The notes below the pieces were generated by a model, which saw only the letters and a list, made by a program, of their open reading frames with translations, searched no databases and was not told the origin of the DNA. A stretch of DNA of 64,000 bases. It comes from Bacillota bacterium (GTDB lineage: Bacteria > Bacillota > Sulfobacillia > JAJZYS01 > JAJZLH01). The translations under genes were made by a program, and so were the position numbers. Shown here one piece after another: positions 1-39,467 of the stretch; position 1 is the first letter of the stretch; each line of letters starts with the position of its first letter. The stretch is from positions 10,249-74,248 of the forward strand of contig JAKAUI010000058.1 in assembly GCA_021827745.1 (NCBI GenBank). Direction: 5' to 3'.

Positions 1-830
1 CGGCTGATCCTGCCGATGGCTCCCGAACAGCTGAACCACATGCCGCCCGGACCAGGGGTCAGAGGCCAGGGGCAGCTCTCGCCAGAGTTCGAAAACGACG
101 AGTTGCCCACGCCGGGCACGCCTGCCGAGAACAGAGAGAAGGTCCCAGTCGGGGTGATCCGGCCGATGCCCAGAGGTGCGTTGTTGCCGCCCGTGAGGCT
201 GGATGGCGGTAGGACCACAAACCACAAATTACCGGATGAATCAGGAGCATAGACGAACGCGTGTGGACCAGACACCAGGAACATCTGGTCGCCGTTCGGT
301 AGGCAGGTGAGGCGGACAGGCACCGTGCTGGCGGGTTGCCCGGGAGACGACAGGCTGGTGCGTGTGTTGCACCAGGATGGGAGGGTGACCGAGACGGTGG
401 TGGGGGTACTGCTGCTGGCAACTTTGGCGGCACTGACTGACACCACAACTGGGGCCGAGGTGGCCACCACCTGGCCCTTGCTGCTCGTGGCCAGCTCGGC
501 CGTGAATCGATAGGAGCCGGGAGCCAGGCTGAGCTTGATCGAGTTGGAGAACAGGATGTTCCACAGCTTGCCGTTCTCGTAGAGTCGGATCTCACCACTG
601 CCTGGCTGGGCCGTGGTGGCAGAATTGGCCAGGGTGAAATGGGAGACGGAGAAGCGGATCGTGAGATCAGTGGACGTCTGGGAGGAAGGGATCTTCAGGG
701 TGGACCCGGTGACGGGAGAGACGATCCTGATCGATGGCTTTACGGCCGGTGTCGCAGGCGCGCCACAGCCGGCGACTGCAAGCAGCAGGCACGGCAGCAC
801 GAGCAGGTGGACGAGCGATCTACTCGGCAT
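1..830 (-). CDS. Ig-like + Vgb-like beta-propeller lipoprotein, array copy A (3' end outside window)
   Basis: Not in the ORF track because it has no stop in the window. Manual translation from ATG 830 (GAAGGAGG RBS) gives MPSRSLVHLLVLPCLLLAVAGCGAPATPAVKPSIRIVSP...IRLYENGKLW...RLTCLP...APDSSGNLWFVV...GPGGMWFSC, open to base 1 and clearly paralogous to copies B-H. Confidence 0.85.
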   Translation of the reverse strand, partial: MPSRSLVHLLVLPCLLLAVAGCGAPATPAVKPSIRIVSPVTGSTLKIPSSQTSTDLTIRFSVSHFTLANSATTAQPGSGEIRLYENGKLWNILFSNSIKLSLAPGSYRFTAELATSSKGQVVATSAPVVVSVSAAKVASSSTPTTVSVTLPSWCNTRTSLSSPGQPASTVPVRLTCLPNGDQMFLVSGPHAFVYAPDSSGNLWFVVLPPSSLTGGNNAPLGIGRITPTGTFSLFSAGVPGVGNSSFSNSGESCPWPLTPGPGGMWFSCSGAIGRIS

Positions 831-876
831 CCGGATCCTCCTTCGCAGGTGAGCAGGGAGGCAGACACCGTGACTG

Positions 877-904
877 AGAGCCGCTCCCTCTAGCAAATGG
901 TTCC
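877..904 (-). promoter_or_regulatory. Putative ECF-sigma promoter of copy A (GGAACC-N16-GGCTCT)
   Basis: Same motif and 16-nt spacer about 45-50 nt upstream of the start in each array gene. Confidence 0.6.
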
Positions 905-1077
905 CGGCGGCGATGGGTCGTCCTGTGTAGATAACGATGCCAAAGTCGCGGTCCATGCCTAGAGCGAAGGTGGAAATCAAGAACCATCGTCTGGTCGGAG
1001 GTGTCCGATCCCGCTGAGATAAGGTGTCGTCTGGGATGTCCGTCCCATTCGGATCCTAGGAGATACCCCGACGGCCT

Positions 1078-2994
1078 CTAGGGAAGATTAGCGGTCGTGC
1101 TCGACGGGCTGATCTGGCCGAAGAATGTTGGCGCGTTGGACCCAGAGCGGGCCATCCCCCAGAAGCTCAGGTCGCCCGTCGGACCGAGGACGAGAGAGCC
1201 AAGGCCGTACCCTGCAGGCAGACCCGTAGAGAACACGCTGACCGTGCCGGATGGGCTGACCTTGCCGATGAACGGCCCCGAGTGAGAGTTCTGGTTCCCG
1301 ATGAACCAGATGTCGCCGCCCGGTTCTAATGTCAGGCCGGTCAAGAAACAGGACGTCGGAACCGAACAAGAAGCGAGTGGAGAGAAGCCCTTAGAGACGA
1401 CGCTGACCGTGCCGGACGGGCTGATCCTGCCGATGAAGTTGGTCTTGTTGGCTTCCGAGCCGAGGAACCACATATCACCTCTCACACCGGGGACAAAATT
1501 GCCAACAGAAGACGTCGAGGCAGGCAGGCCCTGGGTGACGCGGGTGACGGTTCCCGACGGGCTGATCCTATCGATGAAGCTCGCATGGTTGGGGCCTGCT
1601 CCGGCGAGCCAGATGTCGCCACTAGGGCCTATTCTCAAAATGCCCACTCCGCACCCAGCCGTCTGAGGCGAGCAAGGAGCCGATGGATACAGGTCATTGG
1701 TGAACCGGGTGACGCTGCCCGAGGGAGTGATCAGGCCGAAGCCTGTGGATCCGGGCTCTACACTGCTGCCAATGTAAAACAGCATGTCGCTGCCAGGGCC
1801 CGGGTGCAGGCACGACTGCGCCCAATCGGTACACATTTGTTGAAGACCCTGGGTAAACAGGGTGACTGCTCCAGACGGAGTGATTTTGCCGATGAAGCTC
1901 GGGTTGCTGGAGCCGTTCACGCTGGGGACGTTGGGGTTGTTGCCGGTGAACCACATGTTGCCGCCCGGACCCAAGGTCAAGGAACCAACTTGACAAGATG
2001 CCGGAGCCGAACCAGAGGCGGCCGGACACAGGCCCTTGGTGAACACGCTTGCCGTCCCCGACGGGCTGATCTTGCCGATGAAGTTGGTCTTGTTGGCTTC
2101 CGAGCCGACGAACCACATGTCACCGCCCAGACCGGGGACGAAATCACCGATAGAAGAGGTCGCGGCAGGCAGGCCCGTGGTGAACAGGCTGACCGTGCCG
2201 GACGGGCCGATCCTACCGATGGTTCCCGAGCAGCTGAACCACATGCCGCCGGGGCCAGGCGTCAGAGGCCAGGGGCAGGTGTCGCCAGAGTTCGAAAAGG
2301 GCGAGCTGCCCACGCCGGTCACGCCTGCCGAGAACAGGGAGAAGCTCCCGGCTGGGGTGATCCGACCGATGCCCAGAGGCGCGTTGCTGCCCCCCGTACC
2401 GAATGGCGGCGCGACCACAAACCACAGGTTGCCGGATGAGTCGGGAGCGTAGTAGAACTCATCAAAACCAGTCACCCTGAATATCTGGTCATCGCCGGGC
2501 AGGCAGGTCAGGCGGACGGACACCGTGCTGGCGCTCTGTCCGGTGGACGAGAGAGTGGCGCGGGTATTGCACCAGGCTGGGAGGGTGACCGAGGTGGAAG
2601 CACTAAGCGACATCGCAACTGGCGCCGAGGTGGCCACCACCTTGCCGTTCGTGACCAATTCGGCCTTGAACTGATAAGAGCCAGGACCAAGGCCGAGGCT
2701 GATCGAGTTGGAGGTCACCATGCCCCACAACTTGCCGTTCTCGTAGAGCCGGATCTGGCCGCTGCCCGATTGGGCGGCGCTGGCAAAATTGACCAGGGTG
2801 AAGTGAGAGACGGAGAAGCGGATCGTGACCGTGGTGGACGGTCGGAAGGAAGGAATCGTCAGGGTGGACCCGCTCGCAGGGGAGACGATTCGGATCGACG
2901 GTTTTGCGGCCGGTGTCGCAGGCGCGCCACAGCCGGCGGCAGCAAGCAGCAGCCACGGCAACACCAGGAGGCGGACGAGCGATCTACCAGGCAT
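1078..2994 (-). CDS. Ig-like + Vgb-like beta-propeller lipoprotein, copy B (9 repeats)
   Basis: Start moved to MPGRSLV (RBS GAAGGAGG); signal peptide with lipobox LAAAGC; repeats GPGGxxWF...IG[RK]I[TS]PSG...F..GLP. Confidence 0.88.
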   Translation of the reverse strand: MPGRSLVRLLVLPWLLLAAAGCGAPATPAAKPSIRIVSPASGSTLTIPSFRPSTTVTIRFSVSHFTLVNFASAAQSGSGQIRLYENGKLWGMVTSNSISLGLGPGSYQFKAELVTNGKVVATSAPVAMSLSASTSVTLPAWCNTRATLSSTGQSASTVSVRLTCLPGDDQIFRVTGFDEFYYAPDSSGNLWFVVAPPFGTGGSNAPLGIGRITPAGSFSLFSAGVTGVGSSPFSNSGDTCPWPLTPGPGGMWFSCSGTIGRIGPSGTVSLFTTGLPAATSSIGDFVPGLGGDMWFVGSEANKTNFIGKISPSGTASVFTKGLCPAASGSAPASCQVGSLTLGPGGNMWFTGNNPNVPSVNGSSNPSFIGKITPSGAVTLFTQGLQQMCTDWAQSCLHPGPGSDMLFYIGSSVEPGSTGFGLITPSGSVTRFTNDLYPSAPCSPQTAGCGVGILRIGPSGDIWLAGAGPNHASFIDRISPSGTVTRVTQGLPASTSSVGNFVPGVRGDMWFLGSEANKTNFIGRISPSGTVSVVSKGFSPLASCSVPTSCFLTGLTLEPGGDIWFIGNQNSHSGPFIGKVSPSGTVSVFSTGLPAGYGLGSLVLGPTGDLSFWGMARSGSNAPTFFGQISPSSTTANLP

Positions 2995-3040
2995 CCAGAC
3001 CCTCCTTCCCAGGTGAGCACAGAGGCAGACACCGAGACAG

Positions 3041-3068
3041 AGAGTCCCTCCCTCCAGCAAATGGTTCC
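3041..3068 (-). promoter_or_regulatory. Putative ECF-sigma promoter of copy B (GGAACC-N16-GACTCT)
   Basis: Conserved bipartite motif, exact 16-nt spacer. Confidence 0.65.
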
Positions 3069-3264
3069 CAGCGAAGGTGAGTCGTCCTCTCTGTATCGCG
3101 GCGCCAGCGCCCTAGGAAAGCGGCGAACGAAGATCTTGGGTTTATTCCCCTGCGAAGAAGAGGACCCAAGGCCCCTGACAGGCTGAGGGTGGCCGGTCCT
3201 GCGGAGAAGGGTGTCATGTGAGTCGTCCGTCCGATTCGGATCCTAGGAGACACCAGATGGGCCT

Positions 3265-5112
3265 CTAGGGAAGATTAGCGGTCGTGCCCGACGGGCTGAT
3301 CTGGCCGAAGAATGTTGGCGGGTTGGGGCCAGAGTCGACGCTCCCGAAGAAGCTCAGATCGCCTGTCGGCCCTTGGACGAGATCGCTTACGCTGGACGTC
3401 GACACAGGCAGGCCTTTGGTGAACAGCGTGACCGTCCCGGACGAGCTGATCTCGCCGATGAACGGTGGCCCCGAGTTGGCACTCGCGTTCCCCAGGAACC
3501 AGATTTCGCCGCCCGGGCCTAGTGTTAGGTTGCCTACAGAGCAAGACATAGGAGTCGAACAAGAAGCGGACGGATACAGGCCCTTAGAGAACACGCTGAT
3601 CACGCCTGACGGACTGATCTTGCCGATGAAGTCGGCGTTGTTGGAGCCTGAGCCGACAAACCACATATTGCCGCTCGGGCCAACGACGAGATTGCCACTA
3701 AAGGACGTCGACGCAGGCAGTCCCTTGGTGAAGTGGGTGATGGTCCCGGACGGACTGATCCTGTCGACGAAGCTCACATGGTTGGGGCCTGATCCGGCGA
3801 GCCAGATGTCGCCACTAGGGCCTATTGTCAAACTGCCCACTCCGCACCCAGCCGTCTGAGGCGAGCAAGGAGCCGATGGATACAGGTCATTGGTAAACCG
3901 GGTGACGCTGCCCGAGGGAGTGATCAGGCCGAAGCCGGTGGATCCGGGCTCTACACTGCTGCCAATGTAGAACAGCATGTCGCTGCCAGGGCCCGGGTGC
4001 AGGCACGACTGCGCCCAATCGGTACACATTTGTTGAAGACCCTGGGTAAACAGGGTGACTGCCCCAGACGGAGTGATCTTGCCGATGAGGCCGCGGCCGG
4101 TGAACCAGATGTCACCGCCGGGGCCCAATGTCAGATCGTTCCCATAGCAAGCTGAGCCGGTCGAACATGTAAACAGTGGATGCAGGGCCTTTGCCAACAC
4201 GGTGATCGTACCCGACGGCGTGATTTTGCCGATGAAGTTGGTGTGAGATGAGCCCGTACCGTCGAACCACAGATCCCCGCCCAGACCAGGGACGAAATTG
4301 CCAATAGAAGACGTCGACCCAGGCAGGCCCTTCGTGAACAGACTGACGGTTCCGGAGGGGCTGATCCTGCCGATGGATCCAGGACAGCCGAACCACATGC
4401 CGCCGGGCCCAAGTGTCAACGGATAGAGGCAGATCTCGGCAGGGCCCGGAGACAGCAAGCTGTTCCCGGGTGTCGCGAACAGGGAGAAGGTCCCGGTCGG
4501 GGTGATTCGGCCGATGCCCAGAGGTGCGTTGCTGCCCGTGAGGCTAAATGGCCTTCCGACGACAAACCAGAGGTTGCCCGATGAGTCAGGAGCATAGAAG
4601 AAGTTGCCTGGGGAGGTTTCATGGAAGATCTGCTCACCAGCAGGCAGGCAGGTGAGGCGGAGAGATACCGTACGGGCGGGCTGTCCGTTGGACGTGAGGC
4701 TGATGCGCGTATTGCACAAGGACGAGAGAGTGGCCGAGACGTGGGCGGCGCTGACCGTCACGACAACGGGTGCCGAGGCGGCCATCACCTTGCCGTTCGT
4801 GACCAGCTCGGCCGTGAATCGATACGAGCCGGCAGCAAGGATGAGACCGATCGAGTTGGAGGTCACCATGCCCCACAATTTGCCGTTTTCGTCCAGTCGG
4901 ATCTGGTTACTGCCGCCGGCGGTGAAGTGAGAGACGGCCCACCGGACGGTGACTGCTTCGGTAGGCCCGCTCGTCACGAAATTGGACCCAGTTGCTGGCG
5001 AGACGATCCGGATCGAAGGCTTTGCGGCTGGTGTGGCCGGAGCGCCACAGCCGACGGCAGCGAGCAGCAGCCCCGGCAACACGAGGAGGCGGACGAACGA
5101 TCTACCAGGCAT
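3265..5112 (-). CDS. Ig-like + Vgb-like beta-propeller lipoprotein, copy C (9 repeats)
   Basis: 615 aa ORF, GGAGGAGG RBS, lipobox AAVGC, nine W/F repeats. Confidence 0.88.
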   Translation of the reverse strand: MPGRSFVRLLVLPGLLLAAVGCGAPATPAAKPSIRIVSPATGSNFVTSGPTEAVTVRWAVSHFTAGGSNQIRLDENGKLWGMVTSNSIGLILAAGSYRFTAELVTNGKVMAASAPVVVTVSAAHVSATLSSLCNTRISLTSNGQPARTVSLRLTCLPAGEQIFHETSPGNFFYAPDSSGNLWFVVGRPFSLTGSNAPLGIGRITPTGTFSLFATPGNSLLSPGPAEICLYPLTLGPGGMWFGCPGSIGRISPSGTVSLFTKGLPGSTSSIGNFVPGLGGDLWFDGTGSSHTNFIGKITPSGTITVLAKALHPLFTCSTGSACYGNDLTLGPGGDIWFTGRGLIGKITPSGAVTLFTQGLQQMCTDWAQSCLHPGPGSDMLFYIGSSVEPGSTGFGLITPSGSVTRFTNDLYPSAPCSPQTAGCGVGSLTIGPSGDIWLAGSGPNHVSFVDRISPSGTITHFTKGLPASTSFSGNLVVGPSGNMWFVGSGSNNADFIGKISPSGVISVFSKGLYPSASCSTPMSCSVGNLTLGPGGEIWFLGNASANSGPPFIGEISSSGTVTLFTKGLPVSTSSVSDLVQGPTGDLSFFGSVDSGPNPPTFFGQISPSGTTANLP

Positions 5113-5157
5113 CCAGACCCTCCTCCCCAGGTGAGCACAGAGGCAGGCACGAGACTG

Positions 5158-5185
5158 AGAGTCTTTCCCCGTAGGAAATGGTTCC
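5158..5185 (-). promoter_or_regulatory. Putative ECF-sigma promoter of copy C (GGAACC-N16-GACTCT)
   Basis: Conserved bipartite motif, exact 16-nt spacer. Confidence 0.65.
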
Positions 5186-5334
5186 CGGCGGCGATGAGTC
5201 GTCCTGTTTAGATAGCAGTGCCAAAGTCACGGTCGATGCCTGGAGCGAAGGTGGAAATCGAAAACCTGAGCCCGACCGGCGGTGTCCGATCCTGCTGTGA
5301 AGCGTGTCGTCTGAGAGGTCCATGCGACTTGCCG

Positions 5335-7245
5335 CTAGGGAAAGGGTGTGGTCGTGGTGGACGGGGTGATCTGGCCGAAGAATGTTGGCGCGTCATGCCC
5401 AGGGTCGGCGAACCCCAGGAAACTCAGGGTCCCTGTCGGACCAAGGCTCAGTGAGCCCAGTTCGTACGCTGCAGGCAAGCCCTTAGAGAACACGCTGACC
5501 GTGCCGGAGGGACTGATCCTGCCGATGAACGGCGGTGCCGAGCCAGTGCTCGTGGATCCCAGGAACCAGATGGCGCCGTCCGGGCCTGCTGTCGGGTCGC
5601 TCACAAAGCAAGATGCCGCAGTAGAAGCAGCGCTGGCCGGACACAGAGCCTTTGTAAACAGCGTCACGGTCCCAGACGGACTGATCTTGCCAATGTAGCT
5701 GGCGTTGCTGGGCCCGTAGCCGCTGAACCAGACGGCACCGTCAGGACTCAATGTCAGGTGGCCCAGAGAGCAGGAAGACGAACAAGGACCGGACGGATAC
5801 AGGCCCTTGGTGAACAGCGTGACGGTCCCGGACGGGCTGATCTTGCCGATGAACGTTATCGCCGGGTTGGTGGACGCGTACCCGGTGAACCAGACGGTAC
5901 CGTCAGGACTCAATGTCAAGCCACTCGGAGAGCAGAAAGTCGAACAAAGAGCGGACGGAGCCAGGCCCTTCGTGAAGTGGGTGACGGTTCCTGACGGGCT
6001 GACCTTATCGATGAAGATGGGGTTGTTTGGGCCCGATCCGGCGAGCCAGATGTCGCCGCCAGGGCCCACTGTCAGGTCGCTCATAAAGCAAGACGGCTGA
6101 GCCGGACAAGAAGCGGACGGATACAGGGCGTTGGTGAACCGGCTGACGCTCCCAGACGGAGTGATCAAACCGAAGCCAATTGTTGCGTTGGCTGTAGTGC
6201 CGCCGACGGAGAACAACATGTCGCTGCCAGGCCCCGGTTGCAGGCACGTCTGCTCGGCCAAGCCGGGACACATCGCTTGAAGGCCCCGGGGAACAAGGGT
6301 GACGGCGCCAGACGGACTGATCATGCCAATGAAGCTGGTGTTGTTGGACCCGTATCCACGGAACAAGATGTCGCCGTTCCGGCCCCATGTCAGGTCGTTC
6401 AGAGCGCAGGACGTCGGAGTCGAACAATAGGCGGATGGAGCCAGTCCCTTGGTGAACAGACTGATCGTGCCGGACGGGACGATCTTGCCGATGACTCCCG
6501 GACAGCCGAACCACATGCCGCCGGGACCAGGTGTCAAGGGGTACAGGCCGCTCGACAGGCAGCCGGATGTAGAGAGTCCCTTCGAGTACACGGAAAAGGT
6601 CCCGGTCAGGGTGATCCGACCGATGCCCAGACGCGCGTAGGTGACTCCCGTGCCGGATGGCGGGGCGACCACAAACCACAGATTGCCGGATGAGTCAGGA
6701 GCGTAGAACTCGTGAAAACCGGTCATCCTGAAAATCTGATCGCCGCCCGGCAAGCAGGTCAGGCGAACGGACACCGTGCTGGCGGGCTGCCGATCGGACA
6801 TGAGACCGGTGCGCGTGTTGCACCAGGATGGGACGGTGACCGAAACGCCGGCGTTGCTGGCAACACCGCTGCTGCCATTGACCGACACCACAACTGGCGC
6901 CGAGGTGGCCACTACCTTCCCTTTCCCGACCAACTCGACCTTGAACTGATAAGAGCCTGGACCAAGGCTGAGGCTGATCGAGTTGGCGGAAACTGCGGCC
7001 CGCCACTTGCCGTTCTCGTACAGTCGGATCTGGTCGCTGCCGCCGGCGGTGAAGTGAGAGACGGCCCACCTGACGGTGACCGTGGTGTCCACCTGGGAGG
7101 ACGAGATCTTCAGGCTGGATCCATTGGCAGGCGAGACGATCCGGATCGAAGGCTTTGCCCCTGGTGTGGCCAGAGCGCCACAGCCGGCGGCAGCGAGCAG
7201 CAGGCAAGGCACAAGCAGGAGGCGGACTAGTGACTTATGAGACAT
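5335..7245 (-). CDS. Ig-like + Vgb-like beta-propeller lipoprotein, copy D (9 repeats)
   Basis: 636 aa ORF, RBS GAGGAGG, lipobox AAAGC, nine repeats, many Cys-pair loops. Confidence 0.88.
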   Translation of the reverse strand: MSHKSLVRLLLVPCLLLAAAGCGALATPGAKPSIRIVSPANGSSLKISSSQVDTTVTVRWAVSHFTAGGSDQIRLYENGKWRAAVSANSISLSLGPGSYQFKVELVGKGKVVATSAPVVVSVNGSSGVASNAGVSVTVPSWCNTRTGLMSDRQPASTVSVRLTCLPGGDQIFRMTGFHEFYAPDSSGNLWFVVAPPSGTGVTYARLGIGRITLTGTFSVYSKGLSTSGCLSSGLYPLTPGPGGMWFGCPGVIGKIVPSGTISLFTKGLAPSAYCSTPTSCALNDLTWGRNGDILFRGYGSNNTSFIGMISPSGAVTLVPRGLQAMCPGLAEQTCLQPGPGSDMLFSVGGTTANATIGFGLITPSGSVSRFTNALYPSASCPAQPSCFMSDLTVGPGGDIWLAGSGPNNPIFIDKVSPSGTVTHFTKGLAPSALCSTFCSPSGLTLSPDGTVWFTGYASTNPAITFIGKISPSGTVTLFTKGLYPSGPCSSSCSLGHLTLSPDGAVWFSGYGPSNASYIGKISPSGTVTLFTKALCPASAASTAASCFVSDPTAGPDGAIWFLGSTSTGSAPPFIGRISPSGTVSVFSKGLPAAYELGSLSLGPTGTLSFLGFADPGHDAPTFFGQITPSTTTTPFP

Positions 7246-7290
7246 TCCGACCCTCCTCTCCAGGCGAGCGCAGAGGCGACACCATGACTA

Positions 7291-7318
7291 AGCGTCTGCT
7301 CGAGTGGCAAGTGGATCT
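7291..7318 (-). promoter_or_regulatory. Degenerate version of the array promoter motif, copy D (AGATCC-N16-GACGCT)
   Basis: Same position and spacer as in the other copies, with mismatches in both boxes. Confidence 0.4.
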
Positions 7319-7506
7319 AGGAGGCGCGTGTCACCCTGCGACGGACGACTCAGGCGATGGCGACTGGGGACATCTGCCCTCCCGGCTGCAATTTGTCCAC
7401 CGACCTTCTTGTCGCTTGGGCCGGGGGCCGCAGTCGGTCAGCCGCACCAGCTGCCGGAAGCGGAACCCGCGATGGAGGCGCATTAGCCCTACCGTAGGTG
7501 GGCATT

Positions 7507-9339: not shown

Positions 9340-9386
9340 GAGGACCGTCCTCTCCAGGCGAGAGCGAGAGCCGACACCATCACTGC

Positions 9387-9414
9387 AGAGTCTTTCTCTT
9401 TAGAAAACGGTTCC
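9387..9414 (-). promoter_or_regulatory. Putative ECF-sigma promoter of copy E (GGAACC-N16-GACTCT)
   Basis: Both boxes conserved although the spacer sequence differs. Confidence 0.65.
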
Positions 9415-9538
9415 CGCGAGCCGCGGGTCCTCCTCCGTCAAGCCGTCGGAATCCGGCCGGTAGGCAGAGAGACGACAGCGGTTGCCCGTCGGCCGGTGCG
9501 TCTTACAGTCGCAGTGCGCGCAGGGGCAATTCCCGAGG

Positions 9539-11440
9539 CTACGGGACGGAGACCGTGACTCGCCCGACGGCGAAGTACGGGCTGAAGGGGCCGCAGCCGC
9601 AGAAGTTCTCCGGAGGGGCCACCGAAGCGCCGTCGCCACCTACGAGGCTGCCGTAGCCAAACCACAGGGTGTTGTTGGCCCCGGAGACCAACCAGCTTGC
9701 CTTGGCGATCGAGTTGGCCGGCAATCCTCGATGGAAGAGGGTGACCGTCCCCGACGGGGTAATTTGACCGATGGCGAGCGAGGCACTTGTGCCGACAGAG
9801 GTCTCGAACCACAGAGTTCCATTTGGCCCAGGTAGCAGCGGGCTCAGACTGGCGCCAGTCGGTAGACCGCTCGAATAGAGGGTAATCATGCCGGATGGAG
9901 TGATCTTGCCGACCGAGGGCTGGCCGGTGGGACTCGTCGTTTCGACGACGAACCACATGTCACCGCCCGGGCCCGGCACCAGGCCGCCGCCATACGCATG
10001 TGCAGGCAGGCCTTTGGTGAACACGCTGATCGTGCCTGATGGACTGATCTGCCCGATGCCCATGGACCCGTTGCATGGCCCAACCCCGGCGAACCAGCCA
10101 ATGCAGGCGACAAACCACATGTCTCCCTGAGAGCCGAAGACCAGATTGCCAGCGGGGCCGCCGGATGGCTGGCCGGATGGGTTCGTAGCCATGGGTATGC
10201 CCTTCGAGAAGAGGGTGATGGCCCCAGACGGGGTGATGCGGCCGATGGCGGACTGACCACTGTTAGTGCCGGCGGTGAACCACAGATCGCCCCTCGGGCC
10301 CGACACGAGGCGGCCCAGAGAAGCCCACCCACTCAATCCCTTTGTGAAGAAGGTGACAGATCCAGAGGGGTTGACCCGACCGATGGCCGACAAAGTCCCG
10401 GTCGTCGATCTCGCCGGTTGAACAGTAAACCATAGGTCTCCACCAGCACCTGGCAGCAGGTCAGACGTTACCGCTGCCGCAGCCAGGCTGGATGGGAACA
10501 GGGAGATCGTCCCGGATGGTGTGATCCGGCCAATGGGCCTGGTTCCGCTGGTACCGACGCGAAAGACTGTGAACCACAGGTCGCCGCCGGGACCCATCAC
10601 GAGACCTCTCGGATAGTCCCCAGCAGCCAGGCCCTTGGAGAATACGGAGATGTTTCCGGATGGGGTGATCCGGCCGACGGCACCACCCGCGCCATAGCCA
10701 GAAAGATCGATCGTGAACCATAGGTCGCCGCCGGGTCCTACAACCAGATCCGACAGGGTGGCCGCTGCAGGCAGGCCCTTCGAGAAGACCGAGGTGGTCC
10801 CGGAGGGCGTAACCCGGCCCACGCCCGACGGGGAGCCGTTCGTAGATCCCGCCGGCTGGATCAGAAACCACATGTCGCCGTTCGAGAACTGCACCAGCGC
10901 AGGGTGCGACCCTGGGAGAGGCTCCCACATTCCATAGGCGGCCGGCAGGCAGGAGAGACTGATCGAAACGGTCTCCGCCGGGCTGACAGGTCGGGTTACA
11001 CCAGGCGTCAAGGAGTGGCAGCTGGGTGAGGCGGCGAGCGTCGGTGCGACCACCGTAACCAGGTCCGGTGCGGAGATGGCCACCACCTTGCCGTTCGTGA
11101 CCAGTTCGGCCCTGAACTGATAAGAACCAGGACCAAGGCCGAGGCGCACCGAGTTGGAGGTCGCCATGCCCCACAACTTCCCATTCTCGTACAGCCGGAT
11201 CTGACCGCTGCTCGGTTGGGCAGCGGTGGCAAAGTTGACCAGGGTGAAGTGGGAGATCGAGAAGTGGATGGTGACCGTCGCGGACACTTGAGCGGACGCA
11301 AGATTCAGGCTGGACCCGTTCGTCGGGGAGACGATCCTGATCGAAGGCTTGGCGGTTGGTGTCGCAGGCGCACCACAACCGGCGGCAGCCAGCAGAAGGC
11401 AGGGCACCAGGAGCAGGCGGAAGGGGGACCTGCCGTGCAT
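9539..11440 (-). CDS. Ig-like + Vgb-like beta-propeller lipoprotein, copy F (9 repeats)
   Basis: Start moved to MHGRSPF (RBS GGAGGAGG); lipobox AAAGC; nine WF repeats. Confidence 0.88.
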   Translation of the reverse strand: MHGRSPFRLLLVPCLLLAAAGCGAPATPTAKPSIRIVSPTNGSSLNLASAQVSATVTIHFSISHFTLVNFATAAQPSSGQIRLYENGKLWGMATSNSVRLGLGPGSYQFRAELVTNGKVVAISAPDLVTVVAPTLAASPSCHSLTPGVTRPVSPAETVSISLSCLPAAYGMWEPLPGSHPALVQFSNGDMWFLIQPAGSTNGSPSGVGRVTPSGTTSVFSKGLPAAATLSDLVVGPGGDLWFTIDLSGYGAGGAVGRITPSGNISVFSKGLAAGDYPRGLVMGPGGDLWFTVFRVGTSGTRPIGRITPSGTISLFPSSLAAAAVTSDLLPGAGGDLWFTVQPARSTTGTLSAIGRVNPSGSVTFFTKGLSGWASLGRLVSGPRGDLWFTAGTNSGQSAIGRITPSGAITLFSKGIPMATNPSGQPSGGPAGNLVFGSQGDMWFVACIGWFAGVGPCNGSMGIGQISPSGTISVFTKGLPAHAYGGGLVPGPGGDMWFVVETTSPTGQPSVGKITPSGMITLYSSGLPTGASLSPLLPGPNGTLWFETSVGTSASLAIGQITPSGTVTLFHRGLPANSIAKASWLVSGANNTLWFGYGSLVGGDGASVAPPENFCGCGPFSPYFAVGRVTVSVP

Positions 11441-11490
11441 TTTGGACTTTCCTCCTCCGAAATGAGGCCACAGGCGATTGCTATGACTGA

Positions 11491-11518
11491 AGAGTCCCCG
11501 GGTTCGGCAAAGGGTTCC
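11491..11518 (-). promoter_or_regulatory. Putative ECF-sigma promoter of copy F (GGAACC-N16-GACTCT)
   Basis: Conserved bipartite motif, exact 16-nt spacer. Confidence 0.65.
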
Positions 11519-11685
11519 TGCCGACGCTCTAGCGTGCCCCGCGTAGCCAGCCATCTCGGCAGGCTCGGTCGGCAGCATGCGGTCCCGAAATCGTTGGCCA
11601 GCCTTTGGGCGCCTGTGGGCTCGGACTGCTGCCTTAGCCGCGTTCCCAATGCTACCTCGCTACCTCCTGGACCCCAGGCAGACAT

Positions 11686-13089
11686 CTAGGGAACAGCGGT
11701 GGCGTTGAGCGTTAGGCTGAGCCGTCCGATGAAGCTGGCGCCATTGGAGCGACTGCCCACGAACCACACAGCGCCCCTGAAACCAAGGAGAGGGCGATCA
11801 CGAGAGCTCAAGGTATAGCCAGAGGGCAGACCCCAAGTGAGCACGCTGCTCGTGCCAGATGGGGTGATCTGGTCGATGGAGATCGTGTTGTTGGTGCCCA
11901 GACCATAGAGCCACATCTTGCCGTCTGGGCCCGGGCTGGGACCGCCCGGTAGAGTGGTTCCCCCTGGCATGCTGAACATGCGGATTGCGCCAGACGGAGC
12001 GATCTTGCCGACGAAAGAACCAGAGTTGGCGTTCCCGCTGAACCACATATCGCCGCTCGGACCGGGGGCAAGAGAGTTGGTCCACATATTGACGGGCAGG
12101 TCCTTCGTGAATACCTGGACGACTCCGGACGGACTGACCTTGCCGATGCCTCCCAGATAGCCGAACCACATATCACCGACCTTGCCGGGGACGAGGGGAT
12201 TGATCCACATATTGGCGGGCAGGCCCTTCGTGAATACCTGGACGACTCCGGACGGACTGACCTTGCCGACGTCTCCCTGAGAGTCGAACCACATGTTGCC
12301 CCCAGATCCCGCTGTCAGGGACAACACGTACCTGTTGAACATAGTGACGGTTCCCGACGGGGTGATCATGCCGAAGCCAGCGTACCCCGGCCCATAGCCC
12401 GCGTTGGGGATGGTGGTGAACCACATGTCGGCGCCAGAGCCTGATTTCAGGAACACAACGCCTGACTTGGGCAGTCCCTTGGTGAACACCGTGACGACTC
12501 CGGCTGGATTGACCGTGCCAACGAATGGTCGAGAGCTGGCAGATCCGGAAAACCACATATCGCCGCTACCGCTAAGGGCGAGACTGCCAATTCGGGTGCT
12601 CGGAGGCAGGCAGGTGAGGCGAATGGACGCCGTGTTCGGCGGTTGCGTGTTGGCCACTGCCGCAGAGGGTGTCCCGCATCCAACGGTCGACAAGATGGTG
12701 GTCGGGACCAAGGCGTTGACGACCGAGACGGCGGAGGGCGCCGAGGTAGCCACGACCTTGCCGCTCTTGACCAAGGTTGCCTTAAAGAGATAGGTGCCTG
12801 GCACCAGGCTGAGGCTGATCGAGTTGGATACCAGCACGTCCCACAGCTTCCCGTTCTCATACAGCTGGATCTGGTCGCTGCCTCCCAGGGTGAAGTGGGA
12901 GACAGCCAAGCGGACCGTGACATTGATCGGCCCCGCCACTCGGGGGTTCATCCGCAGGGTGGACTCGGTGGCGGGCGAGACGATGCGGACCTCAGGCTTC
13001 ACAGCTGGTGTCGCAGGCGCACCACAGCCCGACACAGCAAGCAGCAGGCAGGGCACCAGGAGGAGGCGGAGGAGAAATCTACGGTGCAT
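11686..13089 (-). CDS. Ig-like + Vgb-like beta-propeller lipoprotein, copy G (7 repeats)
   Basis: 467 aa ORF, RBS GGAGGAGG, lipobox AVSGC, close relative of copy H with fewer repeats. Confidence 0.88.
   Translation of the reverse strand: MHRRFLLRLLLVPCLLLAVSGCGAPATPAVKPEVRIVSPATESTLRMNPRVAGPINVTVRLAVSHFTLGGSDQIQLYENGKLWDVLVSNSISLSLVPGTYLFKATLVKSGKVVATSAPSAVSVVNALVPTTILSTVGCGTPSAAVANTQPPNTASIRLTCLPPSTRIGSLALSGSGDMWFSGSASSRPFVGTVNPAGVVTVFTKGLPKSGVVFLKSGSGADMWFTTIPNAGYGPGYAGFGMITPSGTVTMFNRYVLSLTAGSGGNMWFDSQGDVGKVSPSGVVQVFTKGLPANMWINPLVPGKVGDMWFGYLGGIGKVSPSGVVQVFTKDLPVNMWTNSLAPGPSGDMWFSGNANSGSFVGKIAPSGAIRMFSMPGGTTLPGGPSPGPDGKMWLYGLGTNNTISIDQITPSGTSSVLTWGLPSGYTLSSRDRPLLGFRGAVWFVGSRSNGASFIGRLSLTLNATAVP
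12081..12296. repeat. Tandem duplication of one propeller repeat (123-bp period) inside copy G
   Basis: 12081-12173 and 12204-12296 are near-identical (GKVSPSGVVQVFTK.LP.NMW twice). Confidence 0.8.
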
Positions 13090-13137
13090 TTTGAACCTTC
13101 CTCCTCCGAATCAGCCCACAGGCGACGCCCTCACTGA

Positions 13138-13165
13138 AGAGTCCCCAGGTTCGGCAAGAGGTTCC
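13138..13165 (-). promoter_or_regulatory. Putative ECF-sigma promoter of copy G (GGAACC-N16-GACTCT)
   Basis: Conserved bipartite motif, exact 16-nt spacer. Confidence 0.65.
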
Positions 13166-13316
13166 TGCCGACGCTCTATCGTGCCCTGCGGGGTCAGCCA
13201 TCCCGGCAGACTCGGTCGGCGGCAGGCGGTCCCGAAACAGCTGACCAGCCCTTGGTCGACTGTGGGCTCGGGCTGCTTGGGCTCTTGATGCTACCTCCTG
13301 GACCCCAGGCAGACAT

Positions 13317-15047
13317 CTAGGGAACAGCGGCGGCCTTCCCCGCCAGACTAAGCTGGCCGATGAACCTGGTGCCGTTGGAGCGACGGCCGGAGAACCACAA
13401 ATCGCCTCTCAAACCGCTTACGAGCGGATCGGATGAGCTAAAGGTGTCGCCTGCGGGCAGGCCCCAGGTGAGCACCGTGCTCGTGCCAGCCGGTGTGATC
13501 TGGTCGATGAAGAGGGTGTCGTTCTGGCCGAGGCCATAGAGCCACATGCTACCGTCTGGGCCCGGGATGGGACCGCCCGGTAGAGTACCTCCCCCAGACA
13601 GCCCCTTGGCCAGAACGCTGACCGTACCAGATGGGGCGATCTTGCCGACGAAAGAGCCAGAGTTGGCGTTCCCGGTGAACCACATATCACCGCGCGGACC
13701 GGGGACCAGAGGATTGGTCCACATATTGGCGGTCAGGTCCTTCGTGAATACCTGGACGACTCCGGACGGACTGACCTTGCCGATGCCTCCCAGAGAGCCG
13801 AACCACATAGCGCCGCCAGATCCCGCTGTCAGGGACAACACGTACCTCGTGACCGTGGTGACCGTTCCCGACGGGGTGATCATGCCAAAGCCGGAAAACC
13901 CCGGGCCGTATCCGTCGTTGGGGCTGGTGGTGAACCACATGTCGGCGCCAGAGCCTGATTTCAGGATCACAGCGCCCGACTTGGGCAGTCCCCTGGTGAA
14001 CACCGTGACGACTCCGGCTGGACTGACCGTGCCGACGAATGGGCGAGAGCTGACGGATCCGGAAAACCACATATCGCCACCCGGACCAGGGATGGGACTG
14101 CTCGACAGATAGCTCCCGGTCGACACATAGCTCCCGGCCGGCAGGTCCGTGGTGAACAGGGTGATCGTGCCGGAAGGGGTGATCTTGCCGATGAAGCCTG
14201 AGCCGGAGAACCACATGTCGCCGCCAGCGCCAAGGACGAGACTGTTAATTGTGGCGCTCGGAGGCAGGCCTTTGGTGAACACGCTGATCGTACCGGATGG
14301 ACTGACCTTGCCGATGGCTCCTGGACAAGCGAACCACATGCCTCCCGGGCCAGGGGTCAGAGAGTTCAAGCAGCTGGATCTATTCCCGCTCGGCCGGAGA
14401 GCGGCTTCCGGGAGACCCTGAGAGAACAGGGAGAAGGCCCCAGACGGGGTGATCCGACCGACTCCCAGCGGTGAGCCGGCTGCCGATCCGACCACAAACC
14501 ACAGGTTTCCGGATGAATCAGACTCAGCGGCGAAGCCCCCTTGATACATCGAGTCAGTGTTTGGCAGACAGGTGAGGCGGATAGACGCCGAGTTTCGCGG
14601 TTGCGTGTTGGCCGCTGCCGCAGCGGCTGCCCCGCATCCAACGGTCGACAAGATGGTGGTCGGGACCAAGGCGTTGACGACAGAGACCGCGGATGGCACC
14701 GAGGTGGCCACGACCTTGCCGCTCTTGACCAAGGTTGCCGTGAACAGATAGGTGCCCGGCACCAGGCTGAGGCTGATAGAGTTGGAGAAGAGTGTGTCCC
14801 AGAGCTTGCCGTTCTCGTACAGCCGGAGCTGGTCGCTGCCTCCCAGGGTGAAGTGGGAGACAGTCAGGCGGATCGTGACATTGATCGGCCCCGCCACTCG
14901 GGGGTTCATCCGCAGGTTGGACCCGGTGGCGGGCGCGACGATACGGACCGAAGGCTTTACAGCTGGTGTCGCAGGCGCACCACAGCCCGACACAGCAAGC
15001 AGCAGGCAGGGCACCAGGAGGAGGCGGAAGAGGGACCTACCGTGCAT
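13317..15047 (-). CDS. Ig-like + Vgb-like beta-propeller lipoprotein, copy H (9 repeats)
   Basis: Start moved to MHGRSLF (RBS GGAGGAGG); lipobox AVSGC; nine repeats. Confidence 0.88.
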   Translation of the reverse strand: MHGRSLFRLLLVPCLLLAVSGCGAPATPAVKPSVRIVAPATGSNLRMNPRVAGPINVTIRLTVSHFTLGGSDQLRLYENGKLWDTLFSNSISLSLVPGTYLFTATLVKSGKVVATSVPSAVSVVNALVPTTILSTVGCGAAAAAAANTQPRNSASIRLTCLPNTDSMYQGGFAAESDSSGNLWFVVGSAAGSPLGVGRITPSGAFSLFSQGLPEAALRPSGNRSSCLNSLTPGPGGMWFACPGAIGKVSPSGTISVFTKGLPPSATINSLVLGAGGDMWFSGSGFIGKITPSGTITLFTTDLPAGSYVSTGSYLSSSPIPGPGGDMWFSGSVSSRPFVGTVSPAGVVTVFTRGLPKSGAVILKSGSGADMWFTTSPNDGYGPGFSGFGMITPSGTVTTVTRYVLSLTAGSGGAMWFGSLGGIGKVSPSGVVQVFTKDLTANMWTNPLVPGPRGDMWFTGNANSGSFVGKIAPSGTVSVLAKGLSGGGTLPGGPIPGPDGSMWLYGLGQNDTLFIDQITPAGTSTVLTWGLPAGDTFSSSDPLVSGLRGDLWFSGRRSNGTRFIGQLSLAGKAAAVP

Positions 15048-15095
15048 CCGGACCCTCCTCCCCCGAACGAGCGCAGATGCCGCAACCAAGAGTTA

Positions 15096-15123
15096 GGAGT
15101 CTTCGCCCCAGGGAAATGGTTCC
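15096..15123 (-). promoter_or_regulatory. Putative ECF-sigma promoter of copy H (GGAACC-N16-GACTCC)
   Basis: Conserved bipartite motif, exact 16-nt spacer. Confidence 0.62.
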
Positions 15124-19543: not shown

Positions 19544-19546
19544 GGC

Positions 19547-39454: not shown

Positions 39455-39467
39455 GTTTAGGCTTGGT

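What the first reader, a model, noticed from the sequence alone, without database searches (positions are those of the whole stretch)
1..15123. Tandem array of at least 8 surface lipoproteins (Ig-like stalk + beta-propeller) resembling a diversified binding repertoire
Seen: eight head-to-tail paralogs (A runs off the window, so there may be more). Each has a signal peptide ending in A/V-x-G-C, a ~110 aa domain (SIRIVSP...SHFT...IRLYENGK...PGSY.F.AELV), a Cys-pair linker and ~45-aa repeats GPGGxxWF...IGxIxPSG...FxxGLP, with a conserved framework and variable loops. Established: this repeat is the virginiamycin B lyase (Vgb)-like propeller blade, and Vgb itself is a cytoplasmic enzyme with no lipid anchor. 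Inference: these are membrane-anchored, probably non-catalytic binding proteins (adhesion, capture or decoy) forming an expanded, shuffled and co-regulated family. I do not recognise it as a described system.
Basis: partly seen in the sequence, partly recalled or inferred. Interest (0 to 1): 0.88.

Follow-up and report, generated by a model that had tools for sequence, protein, structure and literature searches.

The report
Tandem array of propeller lipoproteins
A small-genome bacterium from mine drainage carries thirteen related genes, nine of them in a row, for membrane-anchored proteins built from a stalk and a nine-bladed ring related to an antibiotic-cleaving enzyme, and most likely uses them to bind things outside the cell.

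Summary
Window 1-15123 holds 8 head-to-tail paralogs on the minus strand. A ninth lies left of the window and 4 more on another contig, so the 1.62 Mb genome has 13. Each has a lipobox signal peptide (Cys22), an Ig-like domain of about 105 aa, a conserved Cys pair, and a Vgb_lyase-family (PF24684) propeller.

AlphaFold2 and blade counts give one nine-bladed ring, seven-bladed in one copy, against seven blades in Vgb. The genome has Lgt and LspA, and no Omp85 was found. The proteins should therefore sit on the outer face of the cytoplasmic membrane.

They score far below the NCBIfam Vgb cut-offs. The His pair at Vgb's catalytic positions is missing in 6 of the 8 window copies. Two adjacent copies keep a D-x-H motif.

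The array lies between two genes that are neighbours in a congener. It forms its own clade and shows mosaic patches. Every copy has a conserved promoter-like motif of the ECF sigma type.

dN/dS is 0.22-0.59 with no excess in loops, so diversifying selection is not shown. My best reading is a co-regulated, genus-restricted repertoire of binding proteins. An enzymatic role is not excluded. I rate it a new variant of a known, uncharacterised kind, of moderate interest.

The parts
1..830 (-). Copy A, N-terminal 276 codons. The gene is C38:9147-11078 and its 3' part lies left of the window. Lipoprotein with an Ig-like domain and a propeller.
877..904 (-). Promoter-like motif GGAACC-N..-CTCT before copy A
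1078..2994 (-). Copy B, 638 aa lipoprotein; PF24684 E 1e-22
3041..3068 (-). Promoter-like motif before copy B
3265..5112 (-). Copy C, 615 aa lipoprotein; PF24684 E 9.7e-27
5158..5185 (-). Promoter-like motif before copy C
5335..7245 (-). Copy D, 636 aa lipoprotein with 16 non-lipid Cys; PF24684 E 1.4e-21
7291..7318 (-). Degenerate promoter-like motif before copy D (TAGATCC...GACGCT). It is found by the weight matrix only. Coordinates are converted from C38:17567 and are approximate.
7507..9339 (-). Copy E, 610 aa lipoprotein, the copy that was modelled. It has an Ig-like domain and a nine-bladed propeller; PF24684 E 7e-37.
9387..9414 (-). Promoter-like motif before copy E
9539..11440 (-). Copy F, 633 aa lipoprotein. 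The listed ORF runs to 11578, but the start that fits the signal peptide is at 11440.
11491..11518 (-). Promoter-like motif before copy F
11686..13089 (-). Copy G, 467 aa short copy with about seven blades
13138..13165 (-). Promoter-like motif before copy G
13317..15047 (-). Copy H, 576 aa lipoprotein and first gene of the array in the direction of transcription
15096..15123 (-). Promoter-like motif before copy H
15293..16438 (-). FAD-dependent oxidoreductase (DAO), the right-hand border gene. In a congener it lies directly next to the EamA gene that borders the array on the left.

Best explanation
SHOWN. The region is most of an 18 kb head-to-tail array of nine paralogous genes, with 13 paralogs in the genome. 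Each encodes the same parts in the same order:
- a 21-residue signal peptide with a lipobox and Cys22;
- a short Ala/Pro tether;
- an Ig-like beta-sandwich of about 105 aa;
- a linker with a conserved Cys pair;
- a Vgb_lyase-family beta-propeller, predicted as one ring of nine blades (seven in copy G). The ring is closed by a blade made from an N-terminal strand and the C-terminal strands.

INFERRED. In this monoderm, acid-mine-drainage Bacillota lineage the proteins are lipidated by Lgt and LspA. They sit on the outer face of the cytoplasmic membrane, with the Ig-like domain acting as a pedestal. The same lipobox-plus-pedestal module carries other ectodomains in this lineage.

Most copies lack the residues of Vgb's active site. 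I therefore think they act mainly as ligand-binding modules rather than streptogramin lyases. From strand topology, both variable loops of each blade (after WF and after GLP) lie on one face, the face that carries Vgb's catalytic His. That face differs between copies in loop length and in paired Cys.

The repertoire grew by tandem duplication at one site, blade loss, loop insertions and deletions, and probably gene conversion. Each gene keeps its own promoter-like motif with ECF-sigma geometry, so the set is probably switched on together. The ligand is unknown.
For: Architecture:
- ORFs and alignment.
- PF24684 in 7 of 7 complete window copies.
- Lipobox rules met in 13 of 13 copies.
- Lgt and LspA present.
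- Omp85 not found in a genome 96.8% complete.
- An SLH-bearing carboxypeptidase is the second gene beyond the array's right end, after the DAO gene.

Fold:
- AF2 model of copy E: pLDDT 82.3, pTM 0.74.
- Blade profile: 8 full blades plus one split blade in most copies.
- Among the best structural matches are nine-bladed propellers: eIF2A 8dys Z 16.2 over 347 aligned residues, and eIF3b 4nox Z 15.4 over 360. Vgb 2z2n gives Z 14.5 at 28% identity.
- Foldseek top hit is Vgb 2qc5, E 6.6e-13.
- The N-domain alone models at pLDDT 85.7 and matches Ig/Fn3-like modules, TMt 0.74-0.79.

Extracytoplasmic make-up:
- D+E is 2.1-4.8% against 10.3% in long ORFs of the genome.
- S+T+G+P is 43-48% against 26.5%.
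- 11 of 13 copies have an even number of non-lipid Cys at short spacings.

Not Vgb:
- NCBIfam Vgb(A)/(B) scores are 31-100 bits against a cut-off of 600.
- An acid after WF is found in 0-1 blades per window copy, against mostly 5-8 of about 8 in distant homologs.
- His at the H270-equivalent place is missing in most blades.

Modular pedestal: a profile of the N-domain finds the same lipobox plus module fused to BNR/Ycf48-like propellers, DUF4850 and Lipoprotein_15.

Expansion:
- TrpRS, carboxypeptidase, DAO and EamA are contiguous in congener G001 with no array between them.
- The nine C38 copies form one clade, SH-aLRT 100, with only three database proteins.
- The N-module occurs in 3 of 210 class genomes.

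Exchange between copies:
- Segment identity matrices disagree between regions.
- P0005 alternates between segments 95-100% like copy A and segments like the leftmost copy.
- Variant patches in copy H in two other runs equal copy G's letters at 19 of 19 and 7 of 7 places.

Regulation:
- The motif gives 7 of 7 window matches upstream of copies, against 0.00 expected in 100 shuffles.
- Of 12 exact matches in the genome, 10 lie before family genes.
- The motif keeps the same register before genes only about 40% identical in protein, including at least 7 genes of G001.
Against: - No ligand, partner or transporter gene is linked to the array. Its borders are ordinary housekeeping genes.
- dN/dS is 0.22-0.59 in all six pairs and all categories, with no consistent loop excess. 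This shows relaxed constraint, not demonstrated diversifying selection.
- The only characterised relatives, Vgb and the CylK propeller, are enzymes (passages read).
- Copy A and the copy left of the window keep His in their last two blades with D-P-H / D-L-H, resembling Vgb's E-P-H. One C64 copy has His aligned to both H228 and H270.
- The loss of acidic residues could be adaptation to acid rather than loss of a metal site (my inference).
- The assignment of loops to one face comes from strand topology, not from inspected coordinates.
- The motif pattern was derived from the copies themselves, which share ancestry. Neither ECF-sized sigma gene carries it.
- The paralog-like patches and joints in other runs could come from contigs built with 31-letter words switching between paralogs. 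One joint shares exactly 32 letters.
- No RNA run holds the region, so expression is untested.
Confidence: 0.55

Rival explanations
1. The copies are extracytoplasmic enzymes (lyase, lactonase or hydrolase type) with diverged active sites. Each paralog would act on a different small molecule or polymer that reaches the membrane-wall space, for example cyclic esters or depsipeptides, or extracellular polymers.
For: - The characterised members of the fold family are enzymes: Vgb and CylK (passages read).
- There are weak overlaps with lactonase, SGL and NHL families.
- Two adjacent copies keep His in two adjacent blades plus a D-x-H motif. They also have an acid in the C-terminal strand (PLEFF / PLDFF) where the other three copies of that subgroup have Thr.
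- One C64 copy has three consecutive His.
Against: - The candidate catalytic residues are not conserved among paralogs. 6 of the 8 window copies lack the His pair.
- The acid after WF is lost.
- NCBIfam Vgb scores are 6 to 19 times below the cut-off.
- A nine-bladed ring cannot reproduce the geometry of a seven-bladed active site (inference).
- Most of the broad family also lacks these His, so enzyme chemistry of the Vgb kind is not the family norm.
Confidence: 0.27
2. The array is a variable surface-protein system. It would alter what the cell shows to phages, predators or partner cells, as in variable lipoprotein families of small-genome bacteria (an analogy I recall). Variation would come from gene conversion among copies.
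For: - Mosaic relatives and paralog-derived patches.
- Copy number and position differ between congeners.
- The family takes about 1.6% of a 1.62 Mb genome (my arithmetic).
- dN/dS is well above what I recall as usual for housekeeping genes (I ran no comparison on this genome's own housekeeping genes).
Against: - Every copy has its own intact start and the same promoter-like motif. That argues for joint rather than one-at-a-time expression.
- No reverse transcriptase was found in the genome.
- No recombinase lies next to the C38 array. Only a transposase lies beside the C64 cluster.
- In a monoderm cell a short-stalked lipoprotein lies under the wall and S-layer and is poorly exposed (inference).
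- PADLOC gave 0 families for the 3 copies tested.
Confidence: 0.12
3. The genes are true streptogramin B lyase resistance genes.
For: A Pfam PF24684 match, and best sequence matches to Vgb structures.
Against: - NCBIfam Vgb(A)/(B) scores are 31-100 bits against a cut-off of 600.
- The proteins have an export signal and lipobox.
- They have nine blades instead of seven.
- The catalytic His pair is missing in most copies.
- Thirteen copies in one genome would be odd for a resistance gene.
Confidence: 0.02

Closest known systems
Virginiamycin B lyase Vgb (Staphylococcus; PDB 2z2n, 2z2o, 2z2p, 2qc5)
   Same: The blade repeat is the same (IGRIT..G.I..F / ..GP.G.LWF). Best sequence match is E 2.3e-27. 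Best Foldseek hit is E 6.6e-13. VIA gives Z 14.5 at 28% identity. Both belong to Pfam PF24684.
   Different: Vgb is 299 aa, has seven blades and no signal peptide. Here there are nine blades, a lipobox signal, an Ig-like pedestal and disulfide-type Cys pairs. NCBIfam Vgb cut-offs are missed by far. The H270-equivalent His is missing in most blades.
Secreted or wall-bound proteins labelled 'streptogramin lyase' or 'Vgb family protein' in metagenomes
   Same: Same propeller family. 724 proteins match at E <= 1e-5 among 8000 scored candidates, many with extra Ig-like, FN3 or SLH domains. A congener has an SLH-anchored one, PF24684 at 307 bits. All are uncharacterised as far as my searches reach.
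   Different: 87 of the 88 listed homologs from P0033 on lack the N-terminal Ig module, and 74 of them lack a lipobox by my regex. Most keep an acid after WF in most blades and have about 8 WF blades. Lipobox plus module together is confined to 31 of the best 120 hits, all among the first 35, and to one genus among 109.
CylK C-terminal propeller (cylindrocyclophane alkylating enzyme)
   Same: A Vgb-like propeller that lost Vgb's polar active-site residues and took on another role (passages read).
   Different: CylK is a seven-bladed biosynthetic enzyme with a Ca-binding N-domain. It is not a lipoprotein and does not occur in arrays.
BtuG (Bacteroides surface lipoprotein that captures vitamin B12)
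   Same: A lipid-anchored propeller used for ligand capture. Fold match 8ptf, Z 13.6. The paper was seen only as a search listing and abstract.
   Different: BtuG has seven blades, is surface-exposed on an outer membrane and is encoded beside its transporter. There is no sequence kinship, and no transporter is linked here. The Z score is in the range of many unrelated propellers in the same list.
Nine-bladed propellers of eIF2A and eIF3b (PDB 8dys, 3wj9, 4nox)
   Same: Ring size and geometry: Z 15.4-16.2 over 347-360 aligned residues.
   Different: These are eukaryotic translation factors at 8-9% identity. They share geometry only.

Membership tests
Pfam PF24684 Vgb_lyase family (domain level) | Profile score above the curated cut-off of 50 bits | tested here: met
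   77-128 bits in 7 of 7 complete window copies. Matches over the cut-off occur across both clusters in the genome.
Streptogramin B lyase Vgb(A)/Vgb(B) (NCBIfam NF000022, NF000096) | Score at or above the curated cut-off of 600 bits | tested here: not met
   31-100 bits in the 4 copies scanned.
Streptogramin B lyase Vgb | Seven-bladed propeller of about 300 aa without an export signal | tested here: not met
   Nine blades by profile count and model. Lipobox signal peptide in 13 of 13 copies.
Streptogramin B lyase Vgb | Catalytic His on two adjacent blades with acidic partners. H270 is confirmed by the H270A entry 2z2p. H228, E268 and E284 are recalled from Korczynska 2007, which is not held in the library. 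| tested here: inconclusive
   Absent in copies B to H. Copy A and the copy left of the window have His in the last two blades with D-x-H. One C64 copy has His aligned to H228 and H270 but Val at E268. Repeat registers are ambiguous.
Bacterial lipoprotein (Sec/SPII) | N-terminal basic residues, a hydrophobic core and a lipobox ending in Cys | tested here: met
   13 of 13 copies fit the G+LPPv2-type and PS51257-type patterns. Cys is at position 22 in 12 copies and 23 in one. The patterns are recalled. SignalP is not available.
Bacterial lipoprotein (Sec/SPII) | Lgt and signal peptidase II present in the genome | tested here: met
   PF01790 at 139.6 bits. PF01252 at 125.6 and 59 bits.
Bacterial lipoprotein (Sec/SPII) | Actual lipidation and cleavage | not testable with these tools
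   Needs labelling or mass spectrometry.
Ig-like domain families Big_7 / BiPBP_C / DUF4399 | Pfam score above the gathering cut-off | tested here: not met
   Big_7 E 0.015-0.043 and BiPBP_C E 0.0098, all below cut-off. DUF4399 has no direct hit. A profile of the domain does reach tandem-repeat proteins that carry DUF4399 at 67-143 bits.
Ig-like / Fn3-like beta-sandwich fold | Fold match of the isolated domain | tested here: met
   Model pLDDT 85.7. 9kvu E 1.3e-5 with TMt 0.74, and 3pdg TMt 0.79 at rmsd 2.2.
ECF-sigma-dependent promoter | A -35 GGAAC and a -10 (C)GTC-like element about 16-17 nt apart (consensus recalled) | tested here: inconclusive
   GGAACC, then 17 nt, then G(T/A/G)CTCT in fixed register before 15 genes of two species. 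There is no transcript start, and no sigma factor is assigned. Two ECF-sized sigma genes exist.
Diversity-generating retroelement target | Reverse transcriptase and a template repeat | tested here: not met
   PF00078 was not found in the genome, which is 96.8% complete. No near-identical template-like repeat appears among the repeats found.
Known anti-phage defence proteins (PADLOC) | A match to any PADLOC model | tested here: not met
   0 families for the 3 copies scanned at E <= 0.01.

The most novel reading that the evidence does not exclude
A genus of small-genome acidophilic Bacillota has built a private, fast-turning-over repertoire of nine-bladed receptor lipoproteins. It did so from a generic lipobox-plus-Ig pedestal and an enzyme-derived propeller. 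A dedicated ECF-type regulon switches the set on together, and gene conversion reshuffles it between strains. It would be a bacterial analogue of a multigene receptor family, used to capture or sense diverse molecules, or partners, in an extreme habitat.
Probability: 0.25. Interest if true: 0.7.

Novelty: new variant of a known kind. Interest (0 to 1): 0.45.

Why it matters
Proteins labelled 'streptogramin lyase' are very common in soil and metagenome annotation and are counted as resistance genes. Here, and in most of the 120 relatives I looked at, the catalytic histidines are missing. Such counts may therefore overstate resistance.

The array is a clear case of a lineage-specific, modular family of envelope proteins, built from a pedestal plus interchangeable ectodomains. 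It takes about 1.6% of a streamlined acidophile genome. That suggests a function the cell cannot give up, although genome reduction would be expected to purge spare paralogs.

It also offers a natural series of seven- and nine-bladed propellers of one family for studying how blade number changes. And it offers a compact promoter motif that could define a small envelope regulon.

Tried and rejected
- Sigma-70 promoter and intrinsic terminator scans of 1-15400 gave 0 promoters (1.5 expected) and 7 terminator-like sites (9.1 expected). This is uninformative.
- Rfam at gathering score found only three tRNAs in the window and nothing in the array.
- A megablast-style search for long identical tracts between paralogs found only overlaps of my own flanks. 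The longest exact runs between copies are 92, 70 and 65 nt, so no very recent conversion is seen inside this genome.
- The weight-matrix scan found no copy of the motif before any of the five sigma-70-family genes. A loose resemblance before the C43 sigma gene scored under 8 bits, and I dropped it.
- Genes next to the two ECF-sized sigma genes gave no link to the family.
- ESM Atlas, named clusters with PF24684 left out: best score 0.80, below the level that counts. Only generic propeller and Ig families appeared.
- The look-up of sequencing runs: no RNA holder listed, so nothing can be said on expression.
- Read laying: contigs only, and several bins lack cover in two runs. Joints have 20-32 shared or flanking letters that I cannot tell from assembly switching.
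- The search for related loci in genome contigs used only blade motifs. It returned 80 loci of the broad family, mostly Actinomycetota MAGs. Only one locus (L023, titled a Bacillota MAG) matched across the N-domain.
- My regex measurement of loop spans has some mis-anchored values: 4, 6, 14, 15 and 19 in the span that runs from the PSG turn to the next WF. The spans run 14-31 and roughly 21-46.
- The family tree is the quick one because the careful search did not finish. It contains one non-family row that I put in by mistake (G002c8_1632, on a very long branch). The three rows meant as outgroup fell inside the tree, so it is unrooted in practice.
- The PF24684 match at window 43957-44490 is a cytoplasmic SGL/gluconolactonase-like protein, not a family member.
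- Supplements of papers were not opened.

Full report
WHAT IS THERE. The window is C38:10249-74248 of a 1.62 Mb assembly of 64 contigs, 96.8% complete. Its first 15.1 kb carries eight large minus-strand ORFs. I trimmed each to the Met 21 residues before the lipobox Cys. The genes are then A (1-830, cut by the window edge), B (1078-2994), C (3265-5112), D (5335-7245), E (7507-9339), F (9539-11440), G (11686-13089) and H (13317-15047). Spacers between them are 168-270 nt. I extended the contig to the left. That shows the rest of A and one more complete copy (C38:7083-8978), followed by an EamA transporter gene and then ddl, dnaJ, grpE and hrcA-like genes. EamA was confirmed by Pfam. The others I read from the translations only. 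A second cluster of four copies lies on the 9 kb contig C64, one of them cut by the contig end. It lies beside a transposase with HTH_38 and rve domains and a rhodanese-domain protein. The genome therefore holds 13 paralogs, 35-72% identical. By my arithmetic that is about 25 kb, or 1.6% of the genome.

DOMAIN ARCHITECTURE. All 13 copies begin M-x-x-R/K, then a hydrophobic core, then A/V/S/I-A/S/V-G-C. Cys is at position 22 in twelve copies and 23 in one. All 13 fit two lipoprotein patterns that I recalled and coded. The genome encodes Lgt and two signal-peptidase-II-like genes. After a short Ala/Pro tether comes a domain of about 105 aa. It is weakly Big_7/BiPBP_C-like in Pfam, E 0.01-0.04 and below cut-off. 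Modelled alone (pLDDT 85.7) it is an Ig/Fn3-like sandwich. Its nearest solved folds are spacer modules of secreted glycoside-active enzymes (9kvu, 3pdg, chitinase A N-domain). A linker follows with two Cys conserved in 13 of 13 copies. The second of these sits in a strand (RLTCLP) that resembles the repeat's own fourth strand. The rest is the repeat IGRIxPSG-xITxF-xxGLP-loop-LxxGPxGxLWF-loop.

PROPELLER FOLD. A blade profile finds 8 full units plus a split unit, N-terminal strand with C-terminal strands, in most copies. Copy G has 6 plus 1. The AlphaFold2 model of mature copy E used 38 aligned sequences and gave pLDDT 82.3 and pTM 0.74. It has nine sets of blade strands. In a search of 48,161 chains that does not rely on Foldseek, nine-bladed propellers are among the best matches. 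eIF2A 8dys gives Z 16.2 over 347 aligned residues, and eIF3b 4nox gives Z 15.4 over 360. The best match, 9qzc_i, has Z 19.5 and I do not know its blade number. Vgb itself scores Z 14.5 with the highest identity, 28%. Foldseek ranks Vgb first at E 6.6e-13, but with TM only 0.53 on the Vgb side, as expected if ring size differs. I could not inspect coordinates.

IS IT A VGB LYASE? All 7 complete window copies pass the Pfam PF24684 cut-off. NCBIfam's Vgb(A)/(B) models give 31-100 bits against a cut-off of 600. In Vgb the substrate and Mg bind near polar residues of blades 6 and 7 (passage in PMC8916777). H270 is fixed by the H270A entry 2z2p. H228, E268 and E284 I recall from Korczynska 2007, which the library does not hold.
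- H270 lies two residues before the first hydrophobic residue of the strand that leads into GPxGxLWF. At that place copies B to H have no His pair.
- Copy A and the copy left of the window have His in their last two blades. The second carries D-P-H or D-L-H, reminiscent of Vgb's E-P-H. They also have Asp/Glu in the C-terminal strand where their three nearest paralogs have Thr.
- The first C64 copy has His in three consecutive blades. HMMER aligns two of them to H228 and H270, with Val at E268.
- The acid that follows WF(T) is present in mostly 5-8 of about 8 blades in distant relatives. It is present in 0-1 blades of the window copies.
- Among the 88 listed relatives outside the lipoprotein clade, the His positions are almost always empty too. 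The Vgb-type site is therefore not the norm of this large family.
My conclusion is that these are not streptogramin lyases. Most copies lack any recognisable Vgb-type site, and two or three copies may keep a remnant or a working variant.

WHERE IN THE CELL. No Omp85 gene was found. The second gene beyond the array's right end, after the DAO gene, is a D-Ala-D-Ala carboxypeptidase with SLH domains. The cell is therefore probably monoderm with a wall-bound layer. A lipoprotein with a 10-residue tether and one Ig domain would hold its propeller a few nanometres above the cytoplasmic membrane, under the wall. The composition fits an acid-exposed, oxidising compartment. D+E is 2.1-4.8% against 10.3% in the genome's long ORFs. 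K+R is 4-6.5% against 10.4%. S+T+G+P is 43-48% against 26.5%. Non-lipid Cys come in pairs in 11 of 13 copies. That acidophile exoproteins are charge-poor is something I recall. Runs labelled mine drainage, mine tailings or sediment metagenome hold the stretch. The four runs I laid, from three studies, cover 24-30 of 30 bins at 95% identity or more.

A MODULAR PEDESTAL. A profile of the N-domain searched against 1.84 billion representatives gave 371 hits at E <= 0.001. Many are long proteins with 4-41 tandem copies. Of those I scanned, five carry DUF4399. More telling is that the same lipobox plus domain, nearly word for word, precedes other ectodomains. These are BNR/Ycf48/sortilin-like propellers (P0130, P0136, P0199), DUF4850 (P0125) and Lipoprotein_15 (P0217, and a gene on C18 of this genome). 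The Ig-like domain is thus a general display module of this lineage. It is not a specific partner of the Vgb-like ring.

DISTRIBUTION AND HISTORY.
- With copy E as query at E <= 1e-20, 3 of 41 related genomes match, all in the window's genus.
- With the N-domain profile at E <= 1e-15, 3 of 210 genomes of the class match, 1 of 109 genera. That is 13 matches in this genome, 4 in G001 and 1 in G002.
- In the protein database the lipobox plus module architecture covers 31 of the best 120 hits, all among the first 35. One is named 'MAG: Vgb family protein [Sulfobacillus sp.]' by its source.
- In G001 the genes TrpRS, SLH-carboxypeptidase, DAO and EamA are contiguous. In the window's genome the nine-gene array lies exactly between DAO and EamA.
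- G001 has its own five-gene array elsewhere, beside an MFS transporter and running into a contig end, plus scattered copies. Some matches there span stop codons.
- G001 also has a classical SLH-anchored Vgb-like protein.
- A quick maximum-likelihood tree puts the nine C38 copies in one clade (SH-aLRT 100) with only three database proteins. The first C64 copy pairs with a G001 gene (caveats are in Tried and rejected).
I read this as birth-and-death evolution with a species-level tandem expansion at a new site.

EXCHANGE BETWEEN COPIES. Identity matrices by segment disagree. For example, F is 75% identical to B in the N-domain but 31% in the next segment. B and C share a stretch that I read by eye as about 85 identical residues within 71% overall identity. 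At the DNA level the longest exact runs there are 92 and 61 nt.
- A protein from another assembly (P0005) alternates between stretches 95-100% like copy A and stretches 95-100% like the leftmost copy.
- P0002 starts with pieces matching D (100%), C (90%) and A (100% at its best), then goes its own way.
- In two other sequencing runs, contigs that lie on copy H carry dense patches of differences. At 19 of 19 and 7 of 7 listed places the other letter is the one copy G has at the paralogous place.
This is what gene conversion would give. These contigs were built from 31-letter words, however, and one joint shares exactly 32 letters, so assembler switching between paralogs is a live alternative.

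SELECTION. Nei-Gojobori estimates were made for six paralog pairs. They were split by the model's strands and loops and by domain. dN/dS is 0.22-0.59 in every class. pN in loops is somewhat higher than in strands in five of the six pairs (all but G/H), but so is pS. Constraint is loose, but positive selection is not shown, and the contrast of 'conserved framework, variable loops' is modest at the substitution level. The clearer variation is in length. The two loop-bearing spans range from 14 to 31 and from about 21 to 46 residues, while the two tight turns (GPxGx, PSG) stay fixed. By the up-down topology of a four-stranded blade, both variable loops lie on one face and both tight turns on the other. 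The Vgb catalytic His sits at the end of the GLP loop, so the variable face is the one homologous to Vgb's substrate face. This is inference, not read from coordinates. In the five most similar copies these loops carry Cys pairs 4-11 residues apart.

REGULATION. None lies next to the array. Aligning the upstream regions shows a block in fixed register: GGGAACC-AyTT-N12-G(T/A/G)CTCT...CACGGTG.
- It ends about 46 nt before each start codon.
- The pattern GGAACCNYTT-N12-GNCKCY has 7 matches in the 64 kb window, all before array genes, against 0.00 expected in 100 shuffles. Copy D has a degenerate version.
- In the whole genome there are 12 exact matches. Ten lie before family genes. One lies before a SIMPL-domain envelope protein on C49. 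One is conserved in both congeners and probably lies in coding sequence.
- The block is kept before at least 7 family genes of G001. Their products are only about 40% identical to the window's, and the surrounding spacer has diverged. That argues for function rather than mere shared descent.
- GGAAC, then 17 nt, then GTC is the geometry I recall for ECF sigma promoters.
- The genome has five sigma-70-family genes, two of ECF size with small membrane proteins downstream. Neither carries the block.
- Two of the C64 copies lack it.
Separate, like promoters point to joint induction, not one-at-a-time expression. No reverse transcriptase was found, and PADLOC gave nothing.

VERDICT. The structural reading is well supported, at about 0.9 in my judgement: lipid-anchored Ig-like pedestal plus Vgb-family propeller, expanded, exchanging and co-regulated. 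The functional reading is the best-supported guess at about 0.55: binders rather than enzymes, with a diversified ligand face. An enzymatic role for some or all copies stands at about 0.27, and a variable-surface system at about 0.12. The propeller family is known and named but functionally unexplored outside Vgb and CylK. Four literature searches found no account of lipoprotein, nine-bladed or arrayed forms.

Noticed in passing
L001 7083-8978 (copy left of the window), window 1-830 with L001 9147-10248 (copy A), and L002 1638-3413: Two adjacent copies keep His in their last two blades with D-L-H / D-P-H, like Vgb's E-P-H. They also have an acid in the C-terminal strand where sister copies have Thr. 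The first C64 copy has His in three consecutive blades. These may be the only catalytically competent members.
   Followed up: partly
G000:C49:2930-2957 (minus), before L102 2168-2899: The only exact copy of the promoter-like motif outside the family that lies before a gene. That gene encodes a SIMPL (DUF541) envelope protein, which hints at a small envelope regulon.
   Followed up: partly
L103 134-1081 (G000:C18): A lipoprotein with Ser/Gly-rich linkers, a diverged copy of the same Ig-like module (E 3.3e-11) and a Lipoprotein_15 domain. The pedestal module is reused with another ectodomain in this genome.
   Followed up: partly
window 19250-19924, minus strand: A ParE-like toxin gene and a Cro/C1-type HTH gene side by side, a likely type II toxin-antitoxin pair, about 4 kb right of the array.
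   Followed up: no
window 43822-44649, plus strand: A cytoplasmic SMP-30/gluconolactonase-like propeller (SGL E 1.8e-25). It gives a weak PF24684 match but is not a member of the lipoprotein family.
   Followed up: yes
window 39380-39628: A cluster of three tRNA genes: Asn-GTT, Met-CAT and Val-CAC.
   Followed up: no
L002 185-1360: A transposase with HTH_38 and rve integrase-core domains (an IS30-type architecture, as I recall it) lies directly before the second cluster. That cluster sits on a short contig of its own.
   Followed up: partly
L015 (G001:C32) and L014 (G001:C19): In the congener some family matches span stop codons (one TAA each). Two promoter-like motifs also lie 1.7-2.1 kb before the nearest open frame. 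Some copies may be decaying.
   Followed up: no
all complete copies, last codon: Every complete paralog and most close homologs end in Pro (...LP, ...VP, ...IP, ...SP) right after the last IGRI-type strand. I have no explanation beyond a possible role in closing the ring.
   Followed up: no
window 1-15400 against 16000-64000: The array is lower in G+C (0.62-0.65) than most of the rest of the window (0.62-0.70, mostly 0.65 or higher), and in third-position G+C (0.74-0.78 against mostly 0.80-0.91).
   Followed up: no
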